From Spirochaetia bacterium (GTDB lineage: Bacteria > Spirochaetota > Spirochaetia > CADAEX01): DNA of 64,000 bases. The stretch is from contig OY759746.1 in assembly GCA_963662795.1 (NCBI GenBank), positions 3,168,001 to 3,232,000 on the forward strand. Direction: 5' to 3'. The position numbers were made by a program, and so were the translations under genes. Positions 11,129 through 33,752 of the stretch are shown one piece after another; position 1 is the first letter of the stretch; each line of letters starts with the position of its first letter. The notes under the pieces were generated by a model, which was not told the origin of the DNA, searched no databases, and saw nothing but the letters and a program-made list of their open reading frames with translations.

Positions 11129-12325
11129 ATGAATAATAATAACGCATTAGGAGCAACACAGAGTTTTCTTCTGGTGGCAAAAGAAAATATGCGAAAATAT
11201 ACTATGTTTATTATGCTTGTGGTTATTGTTCTCGGGTTTGCCGTACTTACCGGAGGGGTTAACATAAATCCGAGGAACTTTACCAATATCTTTATTCAGA
11301 ATAGTTATATACTTGTGCTTGCTGTAGGAATGGTTCTGGTTATTGTAGTCGGAAATATTGATCTTTCCGTAGGGTCTGTCGCTGCCTTTACAGGGGCTAT
11401 TGCCGCAATTATTTACAACGCCGGTTTTGGTATAGTGATTACAGTAATATTGACTATTATGGCGGGGCTTGTCATAGGTGCTTTTCAGGGTTACTGGATA
11501 GCATATGCAAAGATTCCGGCGTTTATTGTAACTCTTGCCGGTATGCTTCTGTTCAGGGGCCTTACCTACATTATAACCAATGTTACACCGATTACTCCTA
11601 AAACAGATGTATTTAAAAAGATTGCTTCAGGTACTGTTTCCTTTAATTTTCTTAAAATCAATGATCTTCATCTGCTACCCGTTATTCTTGGAATAATAAT
11701 TGTTTTTTCGTTTGTTCTGTTTTCTGTTTCAGACAGGCAGAAGAAAATTAAAAACAATTTCCACCTTCTTCCCGTAGCTTATTTCATACTTGAGCTTGTT
11801 TTTATTTCCGCTATTATCATGATTCTATGCTTTCAGTTTGCCCGTTACAGAGGGCTTCCGATAGTATTTGTTATACTGGGAATAACAATCGTAATATTTA
11901 CATTTATAACCAGAAATACAATTTTCGGCAGATATATCTATGCGGTAGGTGGTAATTCGCGTTCTGCAAAACTGTCGGGAATAAATTCAGAACGTATTGT
12001 ATTCTTTGTACACACAATAATGGGGGGATTATGCGGATTATCTGGTGTAGTCTTTACTGCGTATATGAATTCCGCTCTCCCGAAAGCAGGGGAACTATTT
12101 GAACTCGAAGCCATTGCGGCCTGTTTCATCGGCGGTGCTTCAGCTTCCGGAGGTATAGGAACAATTATGGGTGCGATTATGGGCGGGCTTATAATGGGGG
12201 TAATAAACAACGGAATGTCACTGATGAATGTCGGAGCAAACTGGCAGTATGTTGTAAAAGCCCTGGTTCTGCTGATGGCGGTCTGGTATGATATTTATAC
12301 AAGAAAGAAAGCCGGAATGGTATGA
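11129..12325 (+). CDS. gguB: Monosaccharide ABC transporter permease (GguB/MmsB type)
   Basis: IDLSVGS, IPAFIVTLAGML, GRYIYAVGGN, FELEAIAACFIGG; multiple TM helices. Confidence 0.88.
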   Translation: MNNNNALGATQSFLLVAKENMRKYTMFIMLVVIVLGFAVLTGGVNINPRNFTNIFIQNSYILVLAVGMVLVIVVGNIDLSVGSVAAFTGAIAAIIYNAGFGIVITVILTIMAGLVIGAFQGYWIAYAKIPAFIVTLAGMLLFRGLTYIITNVTPITPKTDVFKKIASGTVSFNFLKINDLHLLPVILGIIIVFSFVLFSVSDRQKKIKNNFHLLPVAYFILELVFISAIIMILCFQFARYRGLPIVFVILGITIVIFTFITRNTIFGRYIYAVGGNSRSAKLSGINSERIVFFVHTIMGGLCGLSGVVFTAYMNSALPKAGELFELEAIAACFIGGASASGGIGTIMGAIMGGLIMGVINNGMSLMNVGANWQYVVKALVLLMAVWYDIYTRKKAGMV

Positions 12326-13504: not shown

Positions 13505-15244
13505 ATGTTTTACGGAGAGCAACAGAGCATGATTATACCTGCTGCATTAAAAAATCTTAACCGTTTCCGCTCATGGCGGGAGCTTAAAACAGCCTCTCGC
13601 GATCCTCTTCTTCTTTTTACAATTATCCTTATTTTATCGTCACTGGTAATATTTATCCTCTATCCGCTTTTGAGCGTTGTCATAACAAGCTTTAAAACAG
13701 GCCCCGGGGCTCCTTTTACCCTGTCAATATTTAAAGAGGTTATTGCATCAGCATACCTGAGGCTCGCATTCATGAACAGCATCATGATGGGTTTACTTAC
13801 CGCGGTACTGGGTTCTTTTGTGGGGTTTATTTTTGCCTATGCGCTTTCAAGGACTGATATCCCGTTCAAAAAATTCTTTCACATCATCGCGATTATTCCT
13901 GTTGTCTCGCCTCCCTTTATTGGAGCACTTTCCATTATCATGCTTTTCGGAAATAACGGGCTTATTACATATTCTCTCTTTAAAATTATGAACTACCCCA
14001 TCTACGGGATAAGGGGTCTGCTGCTTGCGCAGGTTATCACCTTTTTCCCGATAGCCTACATCACGCTCCGGGGGGTAATAGATTCCATCAGCCCGACACT
14101 TGAGGATGCCGCCCTTGACCTTGGCGGTTCGAGGTGGAAGGTGTTTAAAAAGGTGACGCTTCCCCTTACAATACCCGGAATCGCCAGCGCCATGCTTGTC
14201 CTTTTTATTGAGACACTTGCCGATTTCGGTAATCCCCTGATCCTTGCCGGCAGCCAGTTCCCTGTGCTGTCAGTTCAGGCTTATCTGCAGATTACAGGAA
14301 TGTATGACCTTCCAAAAGGTTCAGCCCTTGCAATCCTTCTCCTTGTTCCATCCATCACGGCATATTTTCTGCAGAAATACTGGGTCTCAAGAAAACAGTA
14401 TGTGACAATTACAGGAAAACCGACAACATCGGCACTCAAATCAGTCAGCCCGGCTGCGAAATGGCTCCTTTTTTCCGTATGCCTTTTTATAGCCGGTGTT
14501 ATTCTCTTAATTTATATAACAATTCTCTGGGGTTCGTTCGCAAAGGTGTGGGGATATGACAATAATCTTACCCTTGCACATTTTAAATATGTATATGAAG
14601 TGGGATTCAAGGCAGTTATTGACACTTTGACGATCGCGGGAATTTCTACTCCTGTTGCCGGTATTCTCGGCATGATTATTGCCTTCCTTGTTATCAGAAA
14701 AAAATTCCCCGGAAGATATTTTATGGAGTTCACTTCAATGCTCAGTTTCGCAGTCCCCGGAACTGTTATCGGTATTGGTTATATCCTCGCTTTCAACAAA
14801 CCGCCGATACTCCTTACCGGGACGCTATTAATACTTCTATTGAACTTTATTTTCAGGTACATCCCTGTCGGGATACAGTCGGGTATCGCAATACTGCGCC
14901 AAGTAGATCCTTCCATAGAAGAGGCTGCAATAGACCTGGGCGCGGATTCGGGGAAAACCTTTTTTAAAATAACGCTTCCCCTTATGGTACCGGCGTTTTT
15001 CTCGGGCCTTATTTTTTCATTTGTAAGGGCGATGACAGCTATTAGCGCGGTTATTTTCCTGGTTTCATCCAGATGGAACCTTATGACTGTACAGATCATG
15101 TCGCAGACCGAATCCGGCAGACTGGGCGCAGCGGCTGCATACAGCGTAATCCTTGTTGTCCTGATACTGCTTGCAATACTGTTAATAAGATCAATCCTTG
15201 TTTTCCGCTACGGCAGATTCGGCGGGACAATGCTAAAGATATGA
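13505..15244 (+). CDS. ABC transporter permease, FbpB/AfuB type (duplicated domain)
   Basis: Two EAA motifs (LEDAALDLGG, IEEAAIDLGA), PPFIGA, DFGNP; many TM helices. Confidence 0.9.
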   Translation: MFYGEQQSMIIPAALKNLNRFRSWRELKTASRDPLLLFTIILILSSLVIFILYPLLSVVITSFKTGPGAPFTLSIFKEVIASAYLRLAFMNSIMMGLLTAVLGSFVGFIFAYALSRTDIPFKKFFHIIAIIPVVSPPFIGALSIIMLFGNNGLITYSLFKIMNYPIYGIRGLLLAQVITFFPIAYITLRGVIDSISPTLEDAALDLGGSRWKVFKKVTLPLTIPGIASAMLVLFIETLADFGNPLILAGSQFPVLSVQAYLQITGMYDLPKGSALAILLLVPSITAYFLQKYWVSRKQYVTITGKPTTSALKSVSPAAKWLLFSVCLFIAGVILLIYITILWGSFAKVWGYDNNLTLAHFKYVYEVGFKAVIDTLTIAGISTPVAGILGMIIAFLVIRKKFPGRYFMEFTSMLSFAVPGTVIGIGYILAFNKPPILLTGTLLILLLNFIFRYIPVGIQSGIAILRQVDPSIEEAAIDLGADSGKTFFKITLPLMVPAFFSGLIFSFVRAMTAISAVIFLVSSRWNLMTVQIMSQTESGRLGAAAAYSVILVVLILLAILLIRSILVFRYGRFGGTMLKI

Positions 15245-15270
15245 ATTAAAAATTACAGGGGAGCATCGTT

Positions 15271-16359
15271 ATGGGAGTCAAGCTTGTAAATATAACAAAG
15301 ATATTCACCGATCCCGCGCATCCTGAAAAAAGGGTACACGCAGTGAATAATGCCAATATTGAAGTCGCAGACGGGGAGTTCGTGACATTCCTCGGACCTT
15401 CAGGGTGCGGAAAAACTACCACACTCAGAATTATTTCAGGTTTTGAAAACCCGACGGAAGGGGAGGTCTGGATATCGGGTAAAATGGTCAATGATCAGCC
15501 TCCCAACAGACGCGACACCTCAATGGTATTTCAAAGTTATGCGATATTTCCCCATCTATCTGTCGGCCAGAACATCGGTTTCGGTCTTGAGCTTAAGGAG
15601 AGACCGAAAAAGGAAATAAAGCAGGAAGTTGAAAAAATAATGAAGGTAATGGACCTTAAGGACCTCATAAACAGACGGCCTGATCAGCTCTCAGGCGGAC
15701 AGCAGCAGAGGGTTGCCCTTGCAAGGGCAATAATCAACAGGCCCGGAGTACTTCTGTTTGACGAGCCTCTATCAAATCTTGACGCAAAACTTCGGGATCA
15801 GATGCGTCTTGAAATAAGGAGGATACAGCAGACTTTCGGCATAACAAGCATTTATGTAACCCATGACCAGTCAGAGGCTATGACGGTTTCAGACAGGATT
15901 GTTGTAATGAATGAAGGGAACATCATGCAGACAGGGGCTCCCTTTGAAATCTATTCACGACCTGCAAACAATTTTGTCGCGGATTTTATCGGCAGGGTCA
16001 ATTTCTTTGAAGGGACCGCGGTATTGACTGACAAAGAGGGAATTGAAGTCCGCTTTGCGGGAGGGGCCGTTAAAAAAATCGCAAGCTCATCAGGCGAAAT
16101 AAGGGATGGTGGACCTGTTCTTGTAACTGTAAGGCCTGAATCGCTTCGTCTTTATCACAGCAGTGAGAGAAAAGGATTTATCGACGGGGAAATATCAAAA
16201 TCAGTTTATCTGGGTCCTGTTGTGGAATATGAAATTGATACAGGCAGCGGCAAGCCTGTTCTGGCTGTCACCCACAATCCTGTTGAGGAAGGTTTTTTCA
16301 GGCTTGGCGAGAAGGTTACGGCAGACTTCAATCCTGTATCCGCGCATGTGCTTGTCTGA
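15271..16359 (+). CDS. ABC transporter ATP-binding protein, FbpC/PotA type
   Basis: GPSGCGKTT, LSGGQQQRVALARA, LFDEPLSNLD, VTHDQ, C-terminal TOBE-like region. Confidence 0.93.
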   Translation: MGVKLVNITKIFTDPAHPEKRVHAVNNANIEVADGEFVTFLGPSGCGKTTTLRIISGFENPTEGEVWISGKMVNDQPPNRRDTSMVFQSYAIFPHLSVGQNIGFGLELKERPKKEIKQEVEKIMKVMDLKDLINRRPDQLSGGQQQRVALARAIINRPGVLLFDEPLSNLDAKLRDQMRLEIRRIQQTFGITSIYVTHDQSEAMTVSDRIVVMNEGNIMQTGAPFEIYSRPANNFVADFIGRVNFFEGTAVLTDKEGIEVRFAGGAVKKIASSSGEIRDGGPVLVTVRPESLRLYHSSERKGFIDGEISKSVYLGPVVEYEIDTGSGKPVLAVTHNPVEEGFFRLGEKVTADFNPVSAHVLV

Positions 16360-16386
16360 AATAAAGGTATCCGGATATGGCGCGGA

Positions 16387-17025
16387 TCAGTAAGCCTTGT
16401 TTATAGCGCTTTCGATAAGCCGGTTTCTTTTGCATTCAATCTGAAACCTTACCATCGAATCAAAAACATCCATTAACCCTTTAGCATCAATTTCCCGGCT
16501 GCAGATATCCGCCTCCTGGAGTTCCCTGATTAAATAGTAGGCGGATTCAATTGTCGAAAGGCAATATGGGGCAGGCTGAGTTTTGAATTTATATGCGGAC
16601 CTGTAGTCATCTGTAAAAGAAAGACGGGGCAGTTTTTGAAGGCTCCGGCTCATATACATCATTTTCCTGGCCTGTCTCCATGTCGCGTCAAGAAGGAAAA
16701 TGAGAAGCTGTCTGTCCTTAATATTGGATTTAAAATCTTCCGACCCGGCTGAAACAACATCCTTTCCCGGGTAGAGCATCATCGGATAATACAACGGGTC
16801 TGACAACAATTCCTGTGTCCGTGGATTATCATCAAATGATTTGTCAATGATAATTTCTGAATTTTCAAGTGACAGGGACGCTAGTCTGCCTGTCCCTGTC
16901 TTCTGCTGATAGGCTTCAACAGGATGCATGAGAAAAATAAATTTAATCCCTGTATCGACCGGCGATATCTGACTGCAGTAACAGGACTTGAGCGACCGGA
17001 AACATTTAAGACAGCGTAAAGACAT
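16387..17025 (-). CDS. tapT: DTW-domain tRNA-uridine aminocarboxypropyltransferase
   Basis: N-terminal CxxC...CxC, HPxE...TG, LYP, LLDATW (DxTW), LSTIES. Confidence 0.88.
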   Translation of the reverse strand: MSLRCLKCFRSLKSCYCSQISPVDTGIKFIFLMHPVEAYQQKTGTGRLASLSLENSEIIIDKSFDDNPRTQELLSDPLYYPMMLYPGKDVVSAGSEDFKSNIKDRQLLIFLLDATWRQARKMMYMSRSLQKLPRLSFTDDYRSAYKFKTQPAPYCLSTIESAYYLIRELQEADICSREIDAKGLMDVFDSMVRFQIECKRNRLIESAINKAY

Positions 17026-17093
17026 ATAATTCAGGGTATTCTGCCATTGGATTATTTACAAGCTTCTGTTTCTTTAAACTGATAAAAATATTT

Positions 17094-17370
17094 TCATGAG
17101 TAAAATTCTATTGCGTCCATCCGGGCCTTCAGTAATATCGGCAAGGCGGGATTCCGCGAATCCGGACTGCCTGAGTCCCGTAATATCTCCCGGACCCCGC
17201 AGACGGAGATCCTCTTCCGCAATTTTAAAGCCGTCATTTGTATCTTTTATTATTCTTAATCTTGCCTTCGCCTCTTCTGTCATCTCTCTGGTAAAAACAA
17301 GAAAAGTGTATGAGGGATAGCTGCTTATGCCTATTCTTCCCCGCAGCTGATGCAGTGCTGTAAGGCCGAA
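17094..17370 (-). pseudogene. recG: Displaced, frameshifted copy of the recG 3' end
   Basis: Aligns to 23113-23409; about 21 mismatches over the 244-bp ungapped block 17127-17370 by manual count, plus a 20-bp deletion near the stop; right-most 43 bp identical. Confidence 0.93.
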
Positions 17371-17748
17371 CCTCTATTCAGGCTTCTGGTGGCAAATGAA
17401 ATGATTATCCCCTATATCTGTGAGTACATGTCTGTTCGGAATTGCGGAATGATAATTTCATAAACAGGCTTTCTTGTTGTTGTTGGATACAGAATTTCAA
17501 CAAGAATAGAGTTTTTTATTTTTATGGCAGTAAAGGCTATTACAAGTATAATTGGCCTTTTTATCGGGCAGAATTTTATTGCCGAAAAACCTGGGCAGGT
17601 GAGGGAAGGTATTAAAAAAGGACAATATAGTTACTGTTATGCCTGGGGCTTGCTTTTTTTCAGTGTTGTTCATTTTTCTGAAACTGTTAAGTTAAACACA
17701 TTAATTGATGTATCGGCTTAAATTGCAAGTGCTTCCCTGTTTGATTCA

Positions 17749-18831
17749 TCAATTACAATTAATGGTCTTTTTACTAAACTCTATAAGATCTGAAAGTATT
17801 TTTATTTTATCGTAAATTGTGTAATACACGCTGACCGAAGAATTAACGAGAGATATTTTCTGAATGCAGTTATCATTTATTATTTCTGGTGATTGCGTTT
17901 TTATTCCCATAAAATTGAACCATTCACATAAATAGGTAATCATTGAGGTATCTTCTCCGGCTGCATCGCTTACAATAGCAATGGCATCGATACCTCCAAG
18001 AATTGCCATATAATAGCCGATGAATTTTATGATCTGATAAAAGTAAACTTCACGAATGGCAACTGCCTGTTCCGAAGTGTCTTTAAGGAATTCTCTGAAA
18101 TTTATGTTTCGGCCAAGGTATCCGCATATTCCGCTTTTGTTTTCAATAAGATCAACAATATCATGAATCTCCATTCCATATGCATGGAGTTCCATAAGCA
18201 TTGTCGGATCAATGTCCCCACAGCCGGTCATGGAAGGAAGCCCTTCGGCAGAGCTGAATCCAATGCTTGTTTCTATGGGTTGGCCTTCCTGTATGGCTGT
18301 GATATTTGTTTTATCCCCCAGATAAATACTGATAATTTTGGAAATTGAAGAATCATATTTTTGCTTTAGAATATCTGCAATCCATTTATGAGTTAACCCG
18401 AAACCGCCTCTTTTTGTAAAGGATGATTTTCTGAATTTTGACGGTATCGCGCAGATCAGGCTATCGTCAGGCAAAGCTGAAAAAAAAGCCTTATCGCTTA
18501 TTAATCGATGATGTGACTTTGGAAATAAAGCTGTAAAAAAATTGATTACACTGACAGTATAGAGGTCATTATTTGATAAACTGGCTCCGGCAGTATAAAG
18601 ATTATTGATTTGTATATTGCTGAGGTCTTCAATTGAATTCATCCCTTTAATAAGATCACTTTCCTGCAAATACCAGCATTCCTCAATATTTTCTTTCACG
18701 TTATAAGAAATGAATGTTTTAGACACTGTAAGCCAGTTTTCATATAACAGATCCGATTCCATAATAGATTGACAGTTTTTTATCAGAGTTAGTTTAATAC
18801 GGCTGGATTGGATATCAAGCAGTATATTCAC
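17749..18831 (-). CDS. Acetate-kinase-fold pseudoenzyme (Ack3)
   Basis: Recognisable ASKHA/AckA remnants (DKAFF, GGFGLTH, ETSIGFSSAEGL, GCGDIDP, NKSG) but no HR, GFHG His, TR Arg or TDEE; GTG start overlaps upstream stop. Confidence 0.75.
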   Translation of the reverse strand: MNILLDIQSSRIKLTLIKNCQSIMESDLLYENWLTVSKTFISYNVKENIEECWYLQESDLIKGMNSIEDLSNIQINNLYTAGASLSNNDLYTVSVINFFTALFPKSHHRLISDKAFFSALPDDSLICAIPSKFRKSSFTKRGGFGLTHKWIADILKQKYDSSISKIISIYLGDKTNITAIQEGQPIETSIGFSSAEGLPSMTGCGDIDPTMLMELHAYGMEIHDIVDLIENKSGICGYLGRNINFREFLKDTSEQAVAIREVYFYQIIKFIGYYMAILGGIDAIAIVSDAAGEDTSMITYLCEWFNFMGIKTQSPEIINDNCIQKISLVNSSVSVYYTIYDKIKILSDLIEFSKKTINCN

Positions 18832-20042
18832 AGCAATACTTCCTCCATTTTATATAATTTGACAACTTCTTCTGCTATTACAATCTCTTCATCTGTAGGA
18901 ATTATGAGAATTTTAACAGTTGAGTCCTTACTGTCAATTCTGGCTATCATATCAGGTTGTGCCTGTGTGTTTTTCTCAGCATCAAGGTTAATTCCGCACC
19001 ATTTCATATCTGCACAAACCTGTTCTCTTATTTCTGCGCATTGTATTCCTACGTCATCTGTAAAAATAAGGCAATCGATACCCTGTAGCGCCGATATAAA
19101 TGCTCCAATATACCGTTTTACGCTGTGTATATACTTTTTCAGAGCGAGTTGTGACTTTACATCTTCAGGGTTTTTACTCCTTTCAATAATGTCACGTATA
19201 TCGCTGGACTTTTCACTCAGGGATAAAAGGCCGCTTTTATTGTTTAATATATTCTGCACTTCATCTATGGTATATCCGAAATCTGAAATTAAATTCATTG
19301 GGATAAATGCATCAATGTCTCCGCATCGTGTACTCATGACAATTCCAGGTATTCCTGTATAACCCATGGAAATATCGATGGATTTTCCATTTTTTACTGC
19401 ATTAATTTCCGAACCTCCGGTACCTAAATGGCAGATTATCATTTTTAATTTATCATTGGTTGTTTTTAAAATATCAGGAACAGTTTCAGTTATATACTGA
19501 AATGACAATCCATGGAAACCGTATTTTCTGAATCTGAATTTTTCTAAAATATGTTGCGGCAGTATGTACTGAAATGCCCTTTGTGGAATGTCCTTATGAA
19601 AGGCGTTGTCTGTTGTTACAAACTGAGGTATTTTGGGATAGATTTTTGCACAGGCTTTTATGGTCATTAATGCTACGGCATGGTGAATCGGGATAATGGG
19701 CACCAGTTTTTGCATTAAAGTCAGTAGGTTTTTATCAATTTCAGCAGTTGTAAAATTATCAAGCCCATTGGCCCATCTGTGCCCAATTATATCAATAGTG
19801 ACCTTGAGACGATTAATTGTCTCAAGAATAATTGTCACAGCTATCTGATGATTTCCAAGAGGAACTGTTTCAGTAAGATTAATATTCTCATTTTTAAATT
19901 CAATGAATGATGGTTTATCACCTTTAACCCCGACCCGATGTGCTTTACCTTTTAAAATTTCCTTAAGATTATCATTTTCCAGTGTTTTGTATACTTTAAA
20001 GGTTAAAGAAGAACTTCCCCCATTAAACACAAGTAAATTCAT
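18828..20042 (-). CDS. Acetate kinase family protein with PPi-dependent (Entamoeba-type) signature (Ack2)
   Basis: FNGGSSSLTFKV, GHR, PIH, DNAFH, YGFHGLS, CHLGTGGS, VMSTRCGDID, FTDDVG, PTDEE. Confidence 0.85.
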   Translation of the reverse strand: MNLLVFNGGSSSLTFKVYKTLENDNLKEILKGKAHRVGVKGDKPSFIEFKNENINLTETVPLGNHQIAVTIILETINRLKVTIDIIGHRWANGLDNFTTAEIDKNLLTLMQKLVPIIPIHHAVALMTIKACAKIYPKIPQFVTTDNAFHKDIPQRAFQYILPQHILEKFRFRKYGFHGLSFQYITETVPDILKTTNDKLKMIICHLGTGGSEINAVKNGKSIDISMGYTGIPGIVMSTRCGDIDAFIPMNLISDFGYTIDEVQNILNNKSGLLSLSEKSSDIRDIIERSKNPEDVKSQLALKKYIHSVKRYIGAFISALQGIDCLIFTDDVGIQCAEIREQVCADMKWCGINLDAEKNTQAQPDMIARIDSKDSTVKILIIPTDEEIVIAEEVVKLYKMEEVLL

Positions 20043-20118
20043 GTTGTTTTTTTTATTGAATTAATATGTCGGGAGATTAAATTATTAAAAAATATTAATA
20101 GTCTCTGGGGAAATATTT

Positions 20119-20147
20119 GAGAGGATGGAAATATTTCCCATCCTCTC
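20119..20147 (-). other. Intercistronic stem-loop inside the island operon
   Basis: GAGAGGATGG-aaatatttc-CCATCCTCTC, perfect 10-bp stem, no U-tract on the transcribed (minus) strand. Confidence 0.55.
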
Positions 20148-20160
20148 TCATTGAGATGTT

Positions 20161-20958
20161 TCAAATTTCCATATCCTCAAAATAACTTCCCGGAACCCAA
20201 TAGCTTTTTTCCAGGTTTATAAAAGTTGAATAATTATGAAGCATTCCATAATTGGAAGAGCTGATTGAATACCAGCTTATATTTTCGTTTTTTGCAAGTT
20301 CAAGACGAATTTCATCCAGGGTGTCGATACTTGATTGATAATTTTCCTGTGTTTTTCCGATTAAATACAGCTGATCCTCTCTGGTGAGAAAAGAGTATAT
20401 AGGTGCAAGACTTTTACTGTCTGCAAGAGTGACTAATTTCTCCGGTGTAATATCTTTTTTCGGCTGAACTTCTATATGAATGATACTCATTTGTGGATAG
20501 TATCCCCTTTTGGAAGGCGAAAATGATTCAATTGGATAGGATGTAATAACAGGACAATCTATACTGAAAGTTGTTTTTACATCGCTGTCGATAGATGGAT
20601 ACTGACAAGTATAAGTGCAATTGTATTTTACAAGGCATGGTTCATTGGATTTAGGTGTTCTTTTTTCAACAAAATAAGGGAAGGCCATTTCAATTTTTAT
20701 GGTGTTGGCATTTAGCGCAGCAACATAATCTTTAATATTTGTTTTCATCGTTTCAATTCCGATTCTATCCCTGTGAAGGTGTGTAACCTGGATAAATTTA
20801 TCGATCCACTCTGCTTCGAATTCTTTCATTATCCGGGCATGTATTGAAATATTGGCTACTGTATGCTGTCCATTTTTATCCCTTTCTGAGGTTACTTTAA
20901 TGGGGAACGGTAATTCCCGAATACTAACATTTACAAGAAAAGCCCTTCCTTTTTTCAT
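20161..20958 (-). CDS. FolE2/MptA (GTP cyclohydrolase IB)-like T-fold protein with degenerate catalytic motifs
   Basis: Spacing and hydrophobic pattern match FolE2 (V.I..LP.PI, Q.TVA, FPYF.EK.TP, PIYS.L.REDQ, N...LH), but HMSR, CPCS, AHNQR, FVED and ESIH are all altered. Confidence 0.72.
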   Translation of the reverse strand: MKKGRAFLVNVSIRELPFPIKVTSERDKNGQHTVANISIHARIMKEFEAEWIDKFIQVTHLHRDRIGIETMKTNIKDYVAALNANTIKIEMAFPYFVEKRTPKSNEPCLVKYNCTYTCQYPSIDSDVKTTFSIDCPVITSYPIESFSPSKRGYYPQMSIIHIEVQPKKDITPEKLVTLADSKSLAPIYSFLTREDQLYLIGKTQENYQSSIDTLDEIRLELAKNENISWYSISSSNYGMLHNYSTFINLEKSYWVPGSYFEDMEI

Positions 20959-22232
20959 GATTTATCTCCATTACTTTGAAAACTATATGTAAAATTAGTG
21001 TGTACATCATATGTTTTATTTAGAATTCCTATAACATCTTCCAGTATAACCCTCTCTTCATCCGTAGGTACCACGAGTGTCTTGATTCTTGAAGAAGAAT
21101 CTGAAATATCAACAGGTTCTTTTATTTTAAATGCTTTTTGATTTTTAACTTTATCAACGATAAGGCCAATACTATCAAAGCCTTTTGTTATTTCTTTTCT
21201 AACATTTGTATCGTTTTCTCCTACACCGCCTGCGAAGATGATAGCATCAACATTATAATCCAGGACACCTAAATATGCTGCTAAAAATAACCTGATTTTG
21301 TAGCAATAAAGTTTTTGTACCAGAATGCAATTTTCATCACCTTCTGCAATGCCCTGTTCTATATCCCTCATGTCTGTTTTTCCGGTAAAACCGAAAATGC
21401 CGCTCTTCTTGTTAAGCTGTACATTGACAAGTTCTTCTACAGAAATTTTTTCTTTGCCGCAGATATAAGGAATAACTGCCGGATCAACAGTCCCGGATCT
21501 GGTTCCCATCATTACACCATCGAGAGGGGAAATCCCCATGCTGTGTTCAACCGCAACACCATTTTTAATAGCTGTAAGGCTTGCCCCATTTCCGATGTGC
21601 AATGTAATAAGATTCGTATCTTCAGGTCTTTTCCCAAGAAGTGCTGCAGATTTTTTTGACAGGTAAAGGTGTGAAGTCCCGTGGAATCCATATTTTCTTA
21701 CTTTATATTTTTTATACCATTCATATGGCACGCCATATAAATAAGCTTCCTCAGGGAGTGTTTGAAAAAAAGCAGTATCGAAAACGGCAATCTGTGGCAT
21801 ATCAGGTACAAGACCTGTTACTGCATCAATTCCTGCGAGATTTGCCGGATTATGAAGCGGGCCTAATTCAATCATTTCAACGATAGTGTCGTAGACTTCA
21901 CGATTAATAAGAGCGCTTTTCACGAATTTTTCTCCGCCGTGTAAAACTCTGTGTCCTACCGCTGAGATATCTGTCAGGGCTGATAAAACCCTGTAATCCG
22001 GATCAAGTTCACCTTTTAATGCTTCGAATATAAGTTGAATTGCTTCCTGGTGATTCTTACAGTTCCTTTTTACTTTTAAACTGGGTTTCCCACTTACATT
22101 ATGCCGAATAAATGAATCAGCTATTCCTACCCGCTCAACAATTCCTGATGTTACTGCAGAACAATTTTCTTTTTTAAAAAGGGCATATTTTGCCGATGAA
22201 GTACCGCAGTTTAGACATAGTATAAAGCTCAT
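20955..22232 (-). CDS. ackA: Acetate kinase, ATP-type (Ack1, island copy)
   Basis: LNCGTSSAKY, GHRVLHGG, PLHNP, FDTAF, YGFHGTSH, HIGNGAS, GTRSG, FAGGVGEN, PTDEE. Confidence 0.92.
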   Translation of the reverse strand: MSFILCLNCGTSSAKYALFKKENCSAVTSGIVERVGIADSFIRHNVSGKPSLKVKRNCKNHQEAIQLIFEALKGELDPDYRVLSALTDISAVGHRVLHGGEKFVKSALINREVYDTIVEMIELGPLHNPANLAGIDAVTGLVPDMPQIAVFDTAFFQTLPEEAYLYGVPYEWYKKYKVRKYGFHGTSHLYLSKKSAALLGKRPEDTNLITLHIGNGASLTAIKNGVAVEHSMGISPLDGVMMGTRSGTVDPAVIPYICGKEKISVEELVNVQLNKKSGIFGFTGKTDMRDIEQGIAEGDENCILVQKLYCYKIRLFLAAYLGVLDYNVDAIIFAGGVGENDTNVRKEITKGFDSIGLIVDKVKNQKAFKIKEPVDISDSSSRIKTLVVPTDEERVILEDVIGILNKTYDVHTNFTYSFQSNGDKS

Positions 22233-22241
22233 TTTTTCTCC

Positions 22242-22850
22242 TTATGATATTTTATGTAATTGAAGGCCCGTTAATAATAACGAGCAAGAATCAACTGTCG
22301 CTTTTATCGATTCGGAAGAAAAAGTATTGATGGAATAGAGCATGGAAATTAAAATCATAAGTAATAAATGGGCCATATTATTTACATCAACGCTTTTTCG
22401 TATTTCTCCTATTTTTATCCCTAACTTGAGAATTTTAGCAAACAATTTTTTAATTTCATTAAGCCTTAAAAATATTTTTTTTCTCTGGATAATAAATTCA
22501 GGATTATTCACCAGCAATACTTCCAGAAGAACAGTAATGATTTCCTTTTCTGAAATAATATCTGTTAGAAATCTATGTATTAAAAAATTAATTTTTTCAG
22601 CTGATGTCAGAAATATATTGTCACATGCAGTCATGTAATCGGTACCGATTACATCCAGAATGTAGTCAACAGCAAAATCAAGAAGTTCCTGCTTGTCTTT
22701 AAAGTAACTGTAAAATGCAGTTCTCCCCAAATCACTATGATTTGCAATTGTATTCATGTTTGCATTATCAAATCCCAGGTGTGCAAATTCAATTATTGCA
22801 GATTTCATTATTTTGGTTTTTATTACTTTCTTGTTGATAATCTTTGGCAT
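22242..22850 (-). CDS. TetR/AcrR family transcriptional regulator
   Basis: N-terminal HTH: F..LGF.NANMNTIA...LGRTAFYSYFKDKQELL. Confidence 0.9.
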   Translation of the reverse strand: MPKIINKKVIKTKIMKSAIIEFAHLGFDNANMNTIANHSDLGRTAFYSYFKDKQELLDFAVDYILDVIGTDYMTACDNIFLTSAEKINFLIHRFLTDIISEKEIITVLLEVLLVNNPEFIIQRKKIFLRLNEIKKLFAKILKLGIKIGEIRKSVDVNNMAHLLLMILISMLYSINTFSSESIKATVDSCSLLLTGLQLHKIS

Positions 22851-22917
22851 ATATTTTTGTTGACACCATTGTCAATAAAAATATATTTTATATTGACATC
22901 ATTGTCAATATAAAATA
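22849..22917 (-). promoter_or_regulatory. Tandem palindromic operators overlapping a sigma70 promoter of the tetR-ack operon
   Basis: Two TTGACA-N4-TGTCAA palindromes (cores 22860-22875 and 22893-22908); minus strand reads TTGACA(22908-22903)-N17-TATATT(22885-22880). Confidence 0.8.
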
Positions 22918-23112
22918 AAAAAACAATTGAAATAATCCAGACGAACTGATGCAGCCTGTGTGATGGGCTGACTCAAATAAAACTGTCTGTGGATTTTCTG
23001 GTGGGTGTTCGATGATGTTGATCCAGGTTTTATCATTTTACCTGTGATTTTTCATGATCCCCATTGAATTATTTACTGGTAGCTATTTCTTTCAACCGAT
23101 AAATTGTTATTA

Positions 23113-25080
23113 TCATGAGTAAATTTCAATCGCATCTTCTCTGGCTTTCTCAAGTATTTCCTGGTCTTCAATAATATCGGCAAGGCGGAATTCAGCAAAT
23201 CCTGACTGCCTGATTCCCGTAATATCTCCCGGACCCCGCAGACGGAGGTCCTCTTCCGCTATTTTAAAGCCGTCAGTTGTATCCTTTATTATCCTGAGCC
23301 TTGCCTTTGCATCTTCTGTCATCTCTCTGGTAAAAACAAGAAAGGAGTATGAAGGGTAGCTGCTTCTGCCTATTCTTCCCCGCAGCTGATGCAGTGCTGT
23401 AAGGCCGAATCTTTCTGCGTGCTCGATTACCATGCAGGTAGCCTTCGGCACATCAATTCCGACTTCTACAACACTTGTCGCGGCAAGTATTTTTATCTCT
23501 CCTTTTGAGAAACCGCTCATTACAGCTTCCTTTTCCTCTTCAGGAACACGGGAGTGGAGCAGGGCGCACTTATATTCAGGAAAAATATCATTTTCAAGAT
23601 GAGCGTACATAGATTCGGCATTTTTGAGATTAAGGTGTTCTGACTCCTCAACAAGCGGATATACAAAATATGCCTGGAAACCGTTTTCTATCTCCCTTCT
23701 GACCCAGTCATAAACTTTCTGAATATTCTCCTGAAGTACTGTATGTGTTTTTATCAGGCCCCGGCCTGCAGGCATTGATCTTATGGTTGATATTGAGATA
23801 TCGCCGAAAAATGTCATCTGCAGGGTTCTCGGGATAGGGGTCGCAGTCATCATCAGAAAGTCTGTCTCATCCCCTTTCCCCGTGAGCGCGCTTCTCTGGG
23901 CAACTCCGAATTTGTGCTGCTCGTCAACTATCGCAAACCCCAGGTTTTTAAACTTTACTGGTTCTGAAAGGAGGGAATGGGTTCCTATTATCAGGTCAAT
24001 TTCACCCGCTTCAAGCGCCTCACGGACAAGTTTTTTTTTGCTCTCTGGCAGTTTGCCTGAAATAAACGCTATTTTTATATCAGCGCCGGAAAAGAGGCGG
24101 GATGCTGATTCAAGATGCTGTTTCGCAAGCAGTTCTGTCGGGGCCATGAATGCTGTCTGATAGCCTGATTCAATGTAGGGAAGGGCGGATAAAAATCCGA
24201 CTATTGTTTTTCCGCAGCCGACATCTCCCTGAAGTATTCTGCTCATCGGGAGGGTTGAGTTCCCGTCGATGTAGATTTCTTCAACTGCCTTTAACTGGTC
24301 TTCTGTGAGTTTAAATGGGAGTGATTTTAAAAATTCCCCCTGCAGAGTCCGCCTGAGTGTTCTTTCCTTCCTCGATCTTGCTTCTTTCTCTTTTTTCAGG
24401 TCAAGCATTGATTTCTGGAACAGGAAAAATTCCTCATATTTGATTGTTTTTACCGCTTCATCAAGAGTCTCCCTGTTTTCCGGGAAGTGGATGTTTTTTA
24501 TCGCATCCGGCCGGCTGAGGAGGGCGTTTTTCTCAATCAGAGTATCAGGTATGATGTTTTCAAGGTATTTGCCCCGCACTTCAATAGCCTGATGTATTAT
24601 TTTTTTAAGGAAACCCATTGTAAGCTCACCCGTAAGGGGATAGACCGGTATGATTTTCTTGAAATTGACAGGGGATTCGCTGTAAGGTTCAAATTCAAAA
24701 TTGCTGCACTGGATTTCACCGAAACGGAGGGAAAAAGTACCGCTGATGAAGTATTTTTCCCCTTCCCTGAATGAGTTTCTCAGGAAATTCCTGCCGAAAC
24801 AGACCAGAGCGCCTTCAGCGCTGTCATCGCTTATTGAAACTTTAAGTGTTTTTTTGGGACCGTATCCAAACCAGGAAAAATCAGTTACATAACAGATTGT
24901 GTTCAGGTTTACACCTGTACCGGTGCTTCTGTATACCTCTGCCAGACTGTTTAATGTGTCTCTGTAATCGTATGCGCGCGGATAGTAACAGAGCAGGTCA
25001 TCAGGTGAAAAAATACCTGCTTCCTTAAGGTTTTTAAGTGAAGCAGGTCCGATTCCCTTTAATGATTTAAGCGATGACAT
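23113..25080 (-). CDS. recG: ATP-dependent DNA helicase RecG
   Basis: QGDVGCGKT, MAPTELLA, DEQHKFG, MTATPIPRT, QLRGRIGR, DLRLRGPG. Confidence 0.96.
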   Translation of the reverse strand: MSSLKSLKGIGPASLKNLKEAGIFSPDDLLCYYPRAYDYRDTLNSLAEVYRSTGTGVNLNTICYVTDFSWFGYGPKKTLKVSISDDSAEGALVCFGRNFLRNSFREGEKYFISGTFSLRFGEIQCSNFEFEPYSESPVNFKKIIPVYPLTGELTMGFLKKIIHQAIEVRGKYLENIIPDTLIEKNALLSRPDAIKNIHFPENRETLDEAVKTIKYEEFFLFQKSMLDLKKEKEARSRKERTLRRTLQGEFLKSLPFKLTEDQLKAVEEIYIDGNSTLPMSRILQGDVGCGKTIVGFLSALPYIESGYQTAFMAPTELLAKQHLESASRLFSGADIKIAFISGKLPESKKKLVREALEAGEIDLIIGTHSLLSEPVKFKNLGFAIVDEQHKFGVAQRSALTGKGDETDFLMMTATPIPRTLQMTFFGDISISTIRSMPAGRGLIKTHTVLQENIQKVYDWVRREIENGFQAYFVYPLVEESEHLNLKNAESMYAHLENDIFPEYKCALLHSRVPEEEKEAVMSGFSKGEIKILAATSVVEVGIDVPKATCMVIEHAERFGLTALHQLRGRIGRSSYPSYSFLVFTREMTEDAKARLRIIKDTTDGFKIAEEDLRLRGPGDITGIRQSGFAEFRLADIIEDQEILEKAREDAIEIYS

Positions 25081-25095
25081 CTTTAATCCGGCAAT

Positions 25096-25683
25096 TTAGA
25101 AAGGAATAGTAATGAATATTGCTGAAAGAAAGTTTACTGCGAAGTTTCCGATAAAATATGAACCAACAAGCATACCGAAGAAAACCAGGAGGTTAGTCTG
25201 ATAGCTTGATGCTGCATTTTTAAAAAAAACAGAAGCAGCCGATGATGCCATCGGTACGAGCATTGCATCTATACTGCTGATGATCGGAGAAAAAGTGTTT
25301 GATGTAAAATAGAGGAGAAAGAGCCTTATTAAAACTATGATTCCGATAAAGAATATCAGTGAAGCAGCCGCGCTCCAGAATGCTTTTACAAATACGGAAA
25401 GGATTATCCCGAAAGATATTGTCCCGTAAATACCAAGCTGCTGCAGAATGCTGCCGACAATTACAAGGAGTGTAATTGCCACTATCGGTGAAAAATCAAC
25501 ATTGCCGAACCTGAATCCCATTTTTCTGAAGATATTCAGGTAAGGATCGCATAGTTTGACAAAAATGCTGTTAGGATCATTTGCCCTCTGCGGTGAAAAC
25601 CATGTCATCATTATTCTTATGAGTAAAATGAACATGTAGATGGAAACTGCTCCACCCAGAAAATCTGTAAAATTCTTTAACAT
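25096..25683 (-). CDS. yggT: YggT family membrane protein
   Basis: IRIMMTWF...DPYLNIFR...VDFSPIVA motif; hydrophobic. Confidence 0.85.
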   Translation of the reverse strand: MLKNFTDFLGGAVSIYMFILLIRIMMTWFSPQRANDPNSIFVKLCDPYLNIFRKMGFRFGNVDFSPIVAITLLVIVGSILQQLGIYGTISFGIILSVFVKAFWSAAASLIFFIGIIVLIRLFLLYFTSNTFSPIISSIDAMLVPMASSAASVFFKNAASSYQTNLLVFFGMLVGSYFIGNFAVNFLSAIFITIPF

Positions 25684-25697
25684 ATTAACCCCTGTTT

Positions 25698-32414: not shown

Positions 32415-33752
32415 TTAAAGCGGTTTTGCGATAATATCCTTAATTCCGGGGAATTTTTTAAGGTCCTTATTGATGTTTTTCATCCTGTCTTTGTTTACAT
32501 AATTTTTGTTCTGGAAGCTGTATGTGAAATTAGTGTGGACATCATAAGTGCCTTCAAGAAGCGCCTTTGTATCTTCTGTCATTACAAGCTCTTCGTCTGT
32601 CGGGATTACAAAAATCTTTACCTTTGAGTCTTTGGCAGATATTTCTGTTTCAGCGTTTCTGGTCATGGAACTCTTGTTTTTTTCCAGGTCAAGCTTTATG
32701 CCGAACTCTTCAAGACCCGAAGTTGCAAGCATCCTTGTAACAGGCCCTCTTTCACCAACGCCTGCTGTAAAAACAATTGCGTCAACATGTCCGAGCGCGA
32801 AAGCGTAGGAGCCGATATATTTTTTTATTCTGTATGCTTCCATTTTCTGCGCAAGAATAGCCCTTTCATTTCCCTCTTCGGCTGCGATTTCAATATCTCT
32901 CCTGTCTACCCATTTTTCAGTAATACCGAGAACTCCGCTTTTCTTGTTAAGGGCGTTTTCAGCCTGTTCCGGAGTCAATCCTGCTTTCCTCATCATGTAG
33001 AATGAAATTGCCGGATCATGGTCTCCGCTTCTTGTTCCCATTATAAGTCCTTCAAGCGGAGTGAGGCCCATGGATGTATCGTAGGATACGCCGTTTTTTA
33101 CAGCGTTTATGCTTGAGCCGTTTCCGATATGCGCGATAATCAGGTTGGTCGTGAAAGGATCCTTTCCGAGAAGGGCTGATGCTCTTTTTGCTGTGTAAAG
33201 GAAAGATGTTCCGTGAAAACCGTACCTGCGGACTCCGTACCTGGAATACCACTCATAAGGCAGCGCATAAAGGTATACTTCTTTAGACATAGTCTGATGC
33301 CATGCTGTATCCATTATGGCGCAATGCTTTACATTGGGAAGTTCTTCCTGGGCAGCCTTGATTCCTATAATGTTTGCAGGGTTATGAAGAGGCGCCAGCC
33401 CCTGAATGGAATCAAAAGTTTCAATTATTTTATCATCTATAATAATTGATTTGTTGAATTTTTCTCCGCCGTGCACAACCCTGTGTCCTACAGCCTTTAT
33501 ATCGTCTATTGACTTGATTGCACCGACAACCGGGTCAACAAGTGTTTTCATGATAAGATCAATTGCTTCCTTGTGTGTTGGGCACGAATGTTCGAGTTTG
33601 TATTCTTCTTTTCCTGATGTGTTATGCTTGATAAATGAGCCTTCAATTCCGATTCTTTCTACAATTCCGTTTGCGAGCACTTCCTGTTTGTCAAAGTCAT
33701 AGATTTGATATTTTAATGAAGAACTACCGCAATTTAATGTGAGTATTATCAC
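32415..33752 (-). CDS. ackA: Acetate kinase (housekeeping copy)
   Basis: All canonical motifs: LNCGSSSLKY, GHRVVHGG, APLHNP, YGFHGTS, HIGNGSS, GTRSGD, FTAGVGE, PTDEE; GTG start at 33752 with GGAGG SD. Confidence 0.96.
   Translation of the reverse strand: MIILTLNCGSSSLKYQIYDFDKQEVLANGIVERIGIEGSFIKHNTSGKEEYKLEHSCPTHKEAIDLIMKTLVDPVVGAIKSIDDIKAVGHRVVHGGEKFNKSIIIDDKIIETFDSIQGLAPLHNPANIIGIKAAQEELPNVKHCAIMDTAWHQTMSKEVYLYALPYEWYSRYGVRRYGFHGTSFLYTAKRASALLGKDPFTTNLIIAHIGNGSSINAVKNGVSYDTSMGLTPLEGLIMGTRSGDHDPAISFYMMRKAGLTPEQAENALNKKSGVLGITEKWVDRRDIEIAAEEGNERAILAQKMEAYRIKKYIGSYAFALGHVDAIVFTAGVGERGPVTRMLATSGLEEFGIKLDLEKNKSSMTRNAETEISAKDSKVKIFVIPTDEELVMTEDTKALLEGTYDVHTNFTYSFQNKNYVNKDRMKNINKDLKKFPGIKDIIAKPL

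What the first reader, a model, noticed from the sequence alone, without database searches (positions are those of the whole stretch)
18828..20042. Bacterial acetate kinase with the signature of the PPi-dependent Entamoeba enzyme
Seen: PHOSPHATE2 motif CHLGTGGS (Asn to Thr plus an extra Gly versus HIGNGS/A in the two ATP-type copies here), ADENOSINE motif FTDDVG (versus FTAGVG and FAGGVG), SSSLTFKV (versus SSSLKY), FHGLS and VMSTRCGDID. Catalytic Asn7, Arg91, Asp148, His180, Arg241 and Glu384 equivalents are retained. Known, recalled from the literature and not re-aligned: Entamoeba histolytica PPi-dependent ACK has HLGTGGS, FTDQMG, SSSLTYKV and VMSTRCGDID, with an occluded adenosine pocket. 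Inference: this is a bacterial member of that clade, likely PPi/Pi-using, and informative about the origin of the amoebal gene. GHRWANG (Val93 to Ala) and YTGIPG (Pro232 to Gly) suggest a roomier acyl pocket.
Basis: partly seen in the sequence, partly recalled or inferred. Interest (0 to 1): 0.85.

Follow-up and report, generated by a model that had tools for sequence, protein, structure and literature searches.

The report
Bacterial Entamoeba-type acetate kinase in a three-gene cassette
This bacterial gene belongs to the same branch of acetate kinases as the unusual pyrophosphate-forming enzyme of Entamoeba, and in bacteria it almost always sits beside a catalytically dead copy of itself and a degenerate FolE2-like protein, a trio that appears undescribed.

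Summary
ORF 18828-20042 (-) is an intact 404-aa acetate kinase (PF00871) carrying every motif quoted. All ACK catalytic residues are kept.

It is not a one-off. All 120 listed homologues carry HLGTGG. With the signature motifs removed, a careful tree puts the target, 25 bacterial relatives and four archamoebal ACKs (two Entamoeba, Mastigamoeba, Mastigella) on one side of a split from 49 ATP-type ACKs (97/89). The target is not the amoebal sister.

In 51 of 53 metagenome loci with room, the gene is followed by an ACK paralog lacking the catalytic residues. In 46 of 50 a FolE2-like protein is also present, with FolE2's metal-site residues (recalled) replaced. Flanking genes are unrelated. In this window the trio lies with an ATP-type ACK and a TetR gene in a low-GC 6-kb block bracketed by a duplicated recG 3' end. 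Forty relatives lack it.

Pi/PPi use is likely (about 0.6) but untested. The genome also has phosphoketolase, Pta, a GGDD-type PFK and an H+-PPase, and no family-I soluble PPase was found. No paper describing the clade or cassette turned up.

The parts
18828..20042 (-). TGG-type (Entamoeba-type) acetate-kinase-family enzyme, 404 aa, with all catalytic residues intact
   Evidence: AF2 model has pLDDT 89.7. Tree placement.
17749..18831 (-). Catalytically dead ACK paralog, 360 aa, GTG start overlapping the stop of the upstream gene by 4 nt. It lacks the equivalents of Asn7, Arg91, His123, His180, Asn211, Arg241 and Glu384.
   Evidence: PF00871 at E 9.5e-35, covering profile positions 125-379 only. 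Alignments. AF2 pLDDT 85.5 with a full ACK fold, TM 0.75-0.84 at 18-22% identity. Found directly downstream of the TGG gene in 51 of 53 loci.
20161..20958 (-). FolE2-like T-fold protein, 265 aa, start overlapping the stop of the ATP-type ack by 4 nt. FolE2's metal-site residues are replaced, but the subfamily has 32 invariant positions of its own.
   Evidence: PF02649 at 86.7 bits. FolE2 equivalog at 72.5 bits against a cut-off of 215. Alignment to PDB 2R5R and 3D2O. Conservation. Present in 46 of 50 loci.
20955..22232 (-). ATP-type acetate kinase, 425 aa (HIGNGAS, FAGGVG), with a C-terminal tail TYDVHTNFTYSFQ. It is a facultative fourth member of the cluster.
   Evidence: A 64%-identical gene with the same tail lies beside the cassette in L019.
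22242..22850 (-). TetR-family regulator, 9 nt upstream of the ATP-type ack, probably the first gene of the block
   Evidence: PF00440 at E 1.3e-08. A promoter-like site TTGACA-17-TATATT lies at 22908-22880 on the - strand (consensus match only).
17044..17384 (.). Downstream copy of the recG 3' end and its spacer. It is a direct repeat of 23061-23423 and contains a 69-aa remnant ORF at 17074-17283 (-).
   Evidence: D1: 265 nt at 89% identity; about 340 nt at 87% overall; spacing about 6.03 kb.
23061..23423 (.). 3' end of the intact recG gene (23113-25080, -) and its spacer, the upstream copy of the repeat that brackets the block

Best explanation
The ORF encodes an active acetate-kinase-family enzyme. 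It belongs to a large, almost entirely bacterial clade, here called the TGG clade, defined by HLGTGGS, MSTR and FTDD[IV]G. This clade also holds the Pi/PPi-dependent acetate kinase of Entamoeba and the ACKs of other Archamoebae. The most likely reaction is the Entamoeba one: acyl phosphate (acetyl phosphate by default) + Pi -> carboxylate + PPi, with no use of ADP/ATP. In bacteria the gene is the catalytic member of a self-contained three-gene cassette: TGG-ACK, a catalytically dead ACK paralog, and a FolE2-like T-fold protein that has lost FolE2's metal site. I infer that the dead paralog pairs with the active enzyme, because ACKs are dimers and the two genes are translationally coupled. I also infer that the FolE2-like protein is a third subunit or an obligate helper. 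In this genome the cassette arrived as part of a 6-kb inserted block, together with an ATP-type ACK and a TetR regulator. Acetyl phosphate could come from phosphoketolase, from Pta or from the adjacent ATP-type ACK. The PPi could feed the GGDD-type PFK, PPDK or the H+-pumping pyrophosphatase. Shown here: gene integrity, motifs, clade membership, cassette conservation and the island structure. Inferred: phosphoryl acceptor, acyl substrate, physical complex and physiological role.
For: Family and catalytic residues come (N7, R89, H120, D145, H177, R239 and E385 are in 66 of 66 clade members).

Clade: 119 of the 120 listed homologues show CHLGTGG[SA] by regex, and the 120th (P0055) shows it in the alignment. 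FTD[DQ][IV]G was found in 111 of 120 by a strict regex.

Positions where EhACK departs from ATP-ACKs (N211T, G239S and G331 with a side chain; PMC4390882 passages) depart here too: T 66 of 66, S 66 of 66, D 65 of 66. The Gly203-type insertion, needed for EhACK activity (PMC5517563), is in 66 of 66.

Profile test: the TGG profile scores 4H0O at 467.8 bits, first, against 411.8 for T. maritima AckA. The ATP-type profile scores 4H0O at 381.9, rank 18 of 19, against 615.5.

Trees: in the quick tree the 49 ATP-type rows form one side of a branch with SH-aLRT 99. In the careful tree with 48 motif columns removed that split has 97/89, and a 29-row set (25 bacterial plus 4 archamoebal) has 100/96.

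Cassette: the dead ACK is directly downstream in 51 of 53 loci, and the FolE2-like gene is present in 46 of 50. All 3 other genomes of the phylum with the FolE2-like gene have the same gene order. Flanking genes are unrelated. Pairwise distances of the three genes correlate at r 0.83, 0.75 and 0.71, Mantel p 0.001, over 42 loci.

Island: GC is 0.356-0.374 against 0.39-0.46 nearby, the recG 3' end is repeated on both sides, and no relative among 40 has a protein more than 39% identical. All 11 best relatives' loci show H-x-G-N-G.

PPi economy of the genome: Xfp, Pta, H+-PPase, one PFK with GGDDS and one with GGDGT, PPDK_N hits and no PF00719 hit. Pta lies beside the cassette in 3 loci and an ATP-type ACK in 6 loci.
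Against: No activity has been measured for any bacterial member.

As a single sequence the target is no closer to EhACK than to an ATP-type enzyme: 273.0 bits to 4H0O against 274.9 to T. maritima AckA, and 38% identity to E. histolytica ACK.

The ADENOSINE motif is FTDDVG, not FTDQMG. Met324 is Val here (Ile in M. thermophila ACK) and Glu327 is Gln.

Dang & Ingram-Smith found that opening the EhACK pocket did not give ATP use and closing the MtACK pocket did not give PPi use, so the motifs are markers and not proven determinants.

Foldseek on the AF2 model does not separate EhACK (rank 8) from ATP-type structures.

The target is not sister to the amoebal enzymes. The bootstrap of that tree had not settled (correlation 0.979).

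The obligate partners have no known counterpart in Entamoeba, so the bacterial enzyme may do something different.

The genome already has three ATP-type ACKs for acetyl phosphate.

No fused forms that would show physical association were found (weak evidence).
Confidence: 0.6

Rival explanations
1. The TGG-type kinase works on a different carboxylate or phosphoryl pair from acetate/acetyl-P with Pi/PPi. The substrate would be set by its partners, for example a compound bound or made by the FolE2-like T-fold protein, or an oligophosphate acceptor. 'Acetate kinase' would then be only the family name.
For: The FolE2-like partner is the most conserved of the three genes: mean pairwise identity 0.60, against 0.56 for the kinase and 0.40 for the dead paralog. 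It has 32 invariant positions, including His60, His62, Arg63, Glu98, Lys99, Cys108 and Cys114, which suggests a working site of its own. The acyl-pocket positions vary within the clade. The cassette is self-contained with unrelated flanks.
Against: EhACK, a member of the same clade, is an acetate kinase acting alone (PMC5517563). Phe179 is invariant, Leu122 is Ile/Leu/Val, and all ACK catalytic residues are kept. Pta or an ATP-type ACK is a neighbour in some loci. The FolE2-like protein lacks FolE2's metal-site residues, and the recalled guanine-anchoring Glu216 position is Ile here.
Confidence: 0.23
2. It is an ordinary ADP/ATP-dependent acetate or propionate kinase paralog. Its nucleotide-site motifs have drifted, and its resemblance to EhACK reflects shared ancestry without a shared phosphoryl donor.
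For: It scores equally against T. maritima AckA and EhACK. NCBIfam gives only the generic 'acetate/propionate family kinase'. The model folds like all ACKs. Position 331 is Val (Ile in M. thermophila ACK). The determinants of PPi use are unresolved (PMC5517563).
Against: Gly331, described as conserved in all ACKs except EhACK and as a contact of the alpha and beta phosphates of ATP (PMC4390882), is Asp in 65 of 66 clade members, and its neighbour Ala330 is Asp in 66 of 66. In MtACK, G331Q, N211T and G239S cut activity 44- to 200-fold (PMC4390882), yet all three positions are changed here. The PHOSPHATE2 insertion is in 66 of 66. The clade groups with the one enzyme known not to use ATP.
Confidence: 0.12
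3. The gene product is not an enzyme in vivo but a regulatory or structural protein of the cassette.
For: Two of the three cassette proteins have lost the catalytic residues of their parent families.
Against: All seven ACK catalytic residues are invariant in 66 of 66 clade members. The clade includes a kinetically characterised enzyme.
Confidence: 0.03

Closest known systems
Entamoeba histolytica pyrophosphate-forming acetate kinase (EhACK, EC 2.7.2.12, PDB 4H0O)
   Same: Same clade in trees with and without the motif columns. Shared features are the PHOSPHATE2 HLGTGGS with Thr for Asn211 plus the extra Gly, LOOP3 MSTR with Ser for Gly239, SSSLT[FY]KV with Thr for Lys14, Asp at the Ala330 position, a side chain at Gly331, and all catalytic residues.
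   Different: Identity is only 38%. The ADENOSINE motif is FTDDVG against FTDQMG, and Glu327 is Gln. The target is in a different sub-branch from the Archamoebae. The bacterial gene comes with a dead ACK paralog and a FolE2-like protein, for which I know of no Entamoeba counterpart and could not search one. Activity is unmeasured.
ATP-dependent acetate kinases (M. thermophila 1G99/1TUY, T. maritima 2IIR; AckA, TdcD, PduW)
   Same: Same Pfam family, fold (TM about 0.8) and catalytic residues. As a single sequence the similarity is equal to that with EhACK.
   Different: Asn211, Gly239, Ala330, Gly331, Glu334, Asn335 and Lys14 are all replaced, and there is a one-residue insertion in PHOSPHATE2. 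The split in the tree has 97/89 support. The three other intact ACKs of this genome are of this ATP type.
GTP cyclohydrolase IB (FolE2; PDB 3D2O, 8G6C; UPF0343 protein NE1163, 2R5R), for the neighbouring gene
   Same: Matches PF02649 (86.7 bits) and aligns end to end with 2R5R at E 6e-25.
   Different: It is far below the FolE2 equivalog cut-off (72.5 against 215 bits). The positions of Cys147, Cys149, His159 and Glu201 of the N. gonorrhoeae enzyme are Tyr, Ile, Tyr and Gln here. Their role as metal ligands is recalled and not tested. It has its own set of 32 invariant residues, and it is always found beside the two ACK-like genes.

Membership tests
Acetate/propionate kinase family (PF00871, TIGR00016) | Profile match above the curated cut-off over the full length | tested here: met
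   PF00871 at 330.7 bits (cut-off 22), profile positions 2-392 of 392. TIGR00016 at 339.3 bits (cut-off 293.4).
Acetate/propionate kinase family (PF00871, TIGR00016) | Catalytic residues Asn7, Arg91, His123, Asp148, His180, Arg241 and Glu384 (M. thermophila numbering) | tested here: met
   N7, R89, H120, D145, H177, R239 and E385 by alignment to 1G99. Each is in 66 of 66 clade members.
Acetate/propionate kinase family (PF00871, TIGR00016) | Two-domain ASKHA fold | tested here: met
   AF2 model at pLDDT 89.7. Foldseek TM 0.77-0.83 to solved ACKs.
PPi-dependent acetate kinase (EhACK type, EC 2.7.2.12) | PHOSPHATE2 with Thr in place of Asn211 and one extra Gly (EhACK Thr201, Gly203) | tested here: met
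   CHLGTGGS at 204-211. T, G and G are each in 66 of 66.
PPi-dependent acetate kinase (EhACK type, EC 2.7.2.12) | LOOP3 Ser in place of Gly239 | tested here: met
   VMSTR with S237. In 66 of 66.
PPi-dependent acetate kinase (EhACK type, EC 2.7.2.12) | ADENOSINE motif occluding residues Asp322, Gln323, Met324 and Glu327 | tested here: inconclusive
   Asp322 is D329 (identical). Gln323 is D330 (a side chain, but a different one). Met324 is V331 (Ile in M. thermophila ACK). Glu327 is Q334. The residue list comes from passages of PMC5931981.
PPi-dependent acetate kinase (EhACK type, EC 2.7.2.12) | Groups with EhACK rather than with ATP-type ACKs in a phylogeny | tested here: met
   Careful tree without motif columns: the ATP-type split has 97/89, and a 29-row set holding both the target and Entamoeba has 100/96.
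PPi-dependent acetate kinase (EhACK type, EC 2.7.2.12) | Uses Pi/PPi and cannot use ADP/ATP | not testable with these tools
   Needs an enzyme assay.
GTP cyclohydrolase IB (FolE2), for the neighbour 20161-20958 | Equivalog-level profile score | tested here: not met
   NF010200 at 72.5 bits against a cut-off of 215.
GTP cyclohydrolase IB (FolE2), for the neighbour 20161-20958 | Metal-site residues Cys147, His159 and Glu201 (N. gonorrhoeae numbering; their roles are recalled) | tested here: not met
   They align to Tyr141, Tyr153 and Gln196. Tyr141 is 94% conserved in the subfamily.
Active acetate kinase, for the neighbour 17749-18831 | ACK catalytic residues | tested here: not met
   The equivalents of Asn7, Arg91, His123, His180, Asn211, Arg241 and Glu384 are absent, and only Asp148 is kept. 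The fold is kept.

The most novel reading that the evidence does not exclude
The TGG-ACK, dead-ACK and FolE2-like trio is a widespread, horizontally mobile bacterial three-protein machine. It would make PPi (or a longer oligophosphate) from acyl phosphate without any nucleotide. One active ASKHA subunit would be partnered by a pseudo-kinase and by a T-fold protein repurposed from GTP cyclohydrolase into a phosphate or PPi handler. Where an ATP-type ACK sits in the same operon, as here, the pair would form an acetate-cycling converter: ATP + Pi -> ADP + PPi. That would supply PPi-dependent glycolysis and the H+-pyrophosphatase. The Archamoebae would have acquired only the catalytic subunit of this machine.
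Probability: 0.3. Interest if true: 0.85.

Novelty: new variant of a known kind. Interest (0 to 1): 0.75.

Why it matters
The literature I could read treats the Entamoeba enzyme as the only PPi-dependent acetate kinase. It also states that Gly331 is conserved in all other ACKs (PMC5517563, PMC5931981, PMC4390882). A large bacterial clade with the same signature would do several things:
- It gives many natural sequence variants with which to work out what really determines PPi versus ATP use, which mutagenesis has not settled.
- It identifies the bacterial gene pool from which the archamoebal gene was probably taken.
- It offers a candidate PPi source for anaerobes that run PPi-dependent glycolysis, an open question for cellulolytic clostridia (PMC8863071), although that organism was not examined here.
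- It reveals two conserved pseudoenzyme-like partners, a dead ACK and a degenerate FolE2, whose roles are unknown and easy to test.

Tried and rejected
**Searches that gave little**
- Foldseek of the target model against the PDB does not discriminate. All ACKs score TM about 0.8 and 4H0O is rank 8.
- The ESM Atlas search for the FolE2-like protein returned only FolE2-named clusters.
- PADLOC gave nothing for four proteins. For the FolE2-like protein it gave two hits at E 0.0011 and 0.0057, which I take as chance.
- Rfam found no riboswitch or other cis element, either on window 15000-26000 at E up to 1 (two chance-level hits) or on 8 of the 80 metagenome loci at gathering scores (two tRNAs and a PyrR site away from the cassette).
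- Pfam on 30 flanking genes showed no recurring theme beyond Pta in 3 loci.
- Fusion searches, FolE2-like 'longer' and target 'longer', found nothing. The tool itself calls that weak evidence.
- The promoter and terminator scan was at shuffle level: 32 promoter-like sites against 25.7 expected, and 4 terminator-like sites against 4.5.
- No RNA holder was listed for the block.

**Readings considered and dropped**
- Defence system: no PADLOC support.
- Recent duplicate of the TGG gene as the origin of the dead paralog: its profile is nearer the ATP-type profile (hhalign score 497 against 360), and it lacks the PHOSPHATE2 insertion.
- A 774-aa 'fusion' ORF in L019: an artefact of a high-GC contig. 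It resolves into a dead ACK followed by an ATP-type ACK.

**Rows left out of the trees**
- The dead paralog was left out.
- Of 101 ATP-type representatives of 385-420 aa, every second one was taken (46 rows), plus the genome's 3 ATP-type ACKs.
- The 27 TGG rows were picked by hand from the more than 130 available.

**Papers**
- PMC5517563: read parts 1-2 of 5 (abstract, introduction, results, start of the discussion).
- PMC8136499, PMC11736642, PMC8863071, PMC5931981, PMC3072085, PMC9983610 and PMC4390882: only the passages returned by 'find'.
- Supplements were not opened. The full ACK alignment of PMC5517563 and the LGT trees of PMC8136499 are in supplements and may already show bacterial relatives of the amoebal gene.
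- 'Not in print' rests on the searches, in a library that lacks most subscription journals.

**Recalled, not from any call**
- The roles of Cys147, His159, Glu201 and Glu216 in N. gonorrhoeae FolE2.
- GGDD against GGDG as the PPi/ATP mark of PFKs (partly backed by a passage of PMC5931981).
Full report
**Observation**

The ORF at 18828..20042 (-) is intact and 404 aa long. It is a full-length acetate-kinase-family protein: PF00871 at E 1.3e-98 and TIGR00016 at 339 bits against a cut-off of 293. All quoted motifs are present. The alignment to M. thermophila ACK 1G99 shows the catalytic residues retained: N7, R89, H120, D145, H177, R239 and E385. The departures, in M. thermophila numbering, are:
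- Lys14 to Thr.
- Val93 to Ala.
- Asn211 to Thr, followed by an inserted Gly.
- Pro232 to Gly.
- Gly239 to Ser.
- Ala330-Gly331 to Asp-Asp.
- Glu334-Asn335 to Ile-Gln.

**Not a singleton**

A search of the 5.8-billion-protein collection gave 3646 hits. The best 120 are 44-57% identical to the target, apart from one 97% near-copy. Of these, 119 show CHLGTGG[SA] by regex, and the remaining one shows it in an alignment. The few names given by sources are MAGs of Elusimicrobiota, Omnitrophota, Fibrobacterota, Sedimentisphaerales, Bacteroidota and Raymondbacteria. In a 66-sequence alignment (A1), T208, G209, G210, S237 and D329 are invariant and D330 is in 65 of 66. Passages of PMC4390882 name exactly Asn211, Gly239 and Gly331 as the positions where EhACK departs from other ACKs. 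They also state that Gly331 is conserved in all ACKs except EhACK, and this clade contradicts that.

**Does it group with Entamoeba?**

As a single sequence the target scores the same against T. maritima AckA (274.9 bits) and EhACK 4H0O (273.0 bits). It is 38% identical to E. histolytica ACK. Profiles separate the two types:
- The clade profile ranks 4H0O first in the PDB, at 467.8 bits against 411.8 for the next entry.
- A profile of 49 ATP-type ACKs (A5) ranks 4H0O 18th of 19, at 381.9 bits against 615.5 for T. maritima.

A scan of 1.84 billion cluster representatives with the clade profile brought in P0124. (834 bits to 4H0O) and one search identify it as E. dispar ACK. One search also supplied E. 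histolytica ACK (P0273), Mastigamoeba balamuthi (P0148) and Mastigella eilhardi (P0127).

A quick tree of 78 rows put the 49 ATP-type rows on one side of a branch with SH-aLRT 99. To avoid circularity I removed 48 columns covering the six signature motifs and ran a careful search on 79 rows and 364 columns:
- The ATP-type split has 97/89.
- A set of 25 bacterial TGG rows plus the 4 archamoebal rows has 100/96.
- The bootstrap had not fully settled (correlation 0.979).
- Inside the clan, the Archamoebae plus one metagenomic sequence group weakly (74/83), beside other bacterial lineages.
- The target sits elsewhere, with P0002 and P0003 (100/95).

So the target is a member of the EhACK clan and not the amoebal sister.

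**The context changes the picture**

The gene immediately downstream (17749-18831, 4-nt overlap) is an ACK paralog. It matches only profile positions 125-379 and lacks the equivalents of Asn7, Arg91, His123, His180, Asn211, Arg241 and Glu384. It still models as a complete ACK fold, with pLDDT 85.5 and TM 0.75-0.84 at 18-22% identity.

Upstream, after a 118-nt gap, lies a 265-aa FolE2-like protein: PF02649 at 86.7 bits, but 72.5 bits against a cut-off of 215 for the FolE2 equivalog. In the alignment to the N. gonorrhoeae enzyme, Cys147, Cys149, His159 and Glu201 are replaced by Tyr, Ile, Tyr and Gln. Their roles as metal ligands are recalled.

- 51 of 53 loci with at least 1000 bp downstream have the dead paralog directly after the TGG gene.
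- 46 of 50 loci with at least 1900 bp downstream have the FolE2-like gene. In 45 it lies right after the dead paralog, and in one (L019) it lies upstream, as in the window.
- The exceptions are L069 and L072 (neither gene) and L057 and L082 (no FolE2-like gene).

Flanking genes are unrelated from locus to locus. Pta is a neighbour in 3 loci and an ATP-type ACK in 6. L019 carries the same four genes as the window in rotated order, including an ATP-type ACK that is 64% identical to the window's and has the same YDVHT-x-FTYSFQ tail.

The pairwise distances of the three cassette genes correlate over 42 loci at r 0.83, 0.75 and 0.71, with Mantel p 0.001. The FolE2-like gene is the most conserved of the three: mean pairwise identity 0.60, against 0.56 for the kinase and 0.40 for the dead paralog. 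It has 32 invariant positions of its own. The dead paralog's profile is nearer the ATP-type profile than the TGG profile (hhalign score 497 against 360), so it is not a recent copy of its neighbour.

**Acquired block**

None of 40 relatives of the same genus, family or class has a protein more than 39% identical to the target. The 11 best relatives' loci all read H-x-G-N-G. The FolE2-like gene was found in 4 of 401 genomes sampled from the phylum: this genome and three of one other genus, all with the cassette order.

In the window, the five co-directional genes (TetR, ATP-type ACK, FolE2-like, TGG-ACK, dead ACK; 17749-22850) lie in the lowest-GC stretch, 0.356-0.374. They are bracketed by a direct repeat of about 340 nt at 87-89% identity. 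The repeat is the 3' end of recG plus its spacer, and the downstream copy holds a 69-aa RecG C-terminal remnant. No integrase lies inside the block.

**Mechanism**

The steps shown are listed above. The reaction is inferred from clade membership with the only characterised member: acyl phosphate + Pi -> acid + PPi, in the direction EhACK strongly prefers (PMC5517563). The genome could supply acetyl phosphate through phosphoketolase, Pta or the ATP-type ACKs. It could use PPi through the following:
- A 568-aa PFK with GGDDS, alongside a second PFK with GGDGT.
- PPDK-like genes.
- An H+-pyrophosphatase.

No family-I soluble PPase was found.

An ATP-type and a TGG-type ACK in one operon would together convert ATP + Pi to ADP + PPi, with acetate as the carrier. 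This is a hypothesis. That the dead paralog pairs with the active enzyme, and that the FolE2-like protein is a third subunit, are inferences from translational coupling, co-inheritance and the dimeric nature of ACKs. The complex predictor was unavailable.

**Against the main reading**
- There is no assay for any bacterial member.
- The ADENOSINE motif differs from EhACK at three of five 'occluding' residues.
- The determinants of donor choice are unresolved.
- The conserved partners suggest the bacterial function may differ from the amoebal one.

**Novelty**

Searches for a PPi-dependent acetate kinase outside Entamoeba, for EC 2.7.2.12, for EhACK, and for acetate kinase together with FolE2 or GTP cyclohydrolase found no description of the bacterial clade or of the cassette. 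[quoted passage not shown] PMC8136499 (2021) lists acetate kinase among genes acquired laterally by the archamoebal ancestor. Its supplementary trees, which I could not open, may show bacterial relatives.

**Verdict**

PPi use is likely but unproven.

Noticed in passing
window 17044-17384 and 23061-23423: There is a direct repeat of the recG 3' end plus its spacer (87-89% identity, about 6.03 kb apart). It brackets the five-gene block and leaves a 69-aa RecG C-terminal remnant ORF at 17074-17283 (-). No integrase lies inside the block.
   Followed up: yes
window 20955-22232 and 32415-33812; L019 about 10256-11532: Both ATP-type ACKs of the window end in a tail TYDVHTNFTYSFQ beyond the usual ACK C-terminus, and the second continues for about 40 more residues. 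A high-GC metagenome relative beside a cassette has the same tail (SYDVHTRFTYSFQK). Its function is unknown.
   Followed up: partly
genome G000: C1:2278838-2279998, plus four sites in the window: The genome carries five ACK-family genes: three ATP-type, one TGG-type and one dead. That is an unusually large set.
   Followed up: partly
L057 2781-7226; L065 1-4202; L078 3-3773: In three loci the cassette lies near a trio of genes: a 600-aa protein with no Pfam match, a radical SAM/SPASM protein and a phosphotransacetylase.
   Followed up: no
proteins P0136, P0165, P0189, P0222, P0260: These cluster representatives of 770-776 aa have an ATP-type ACK domain at about residues 170-570. At least one similar long ORF (L019, 774 aa) is an artefact of a high-GC contig, so these may be miscalled genes rather than fusions.
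   Followed up: partly
protein P0131: This 436-aa metagenomic protein is the well-supported sister (100/97) of the Mastigamoeba balamuthi ACK. It may come from an uncultured archamoeba.
   Followed up: no
L043 10548-12182: Formate-tetrahydrofolate ligase lies directly downstream of the FolE2-like gene in this one locus. It was seen only once, so it may be chance.
   Followed up: no
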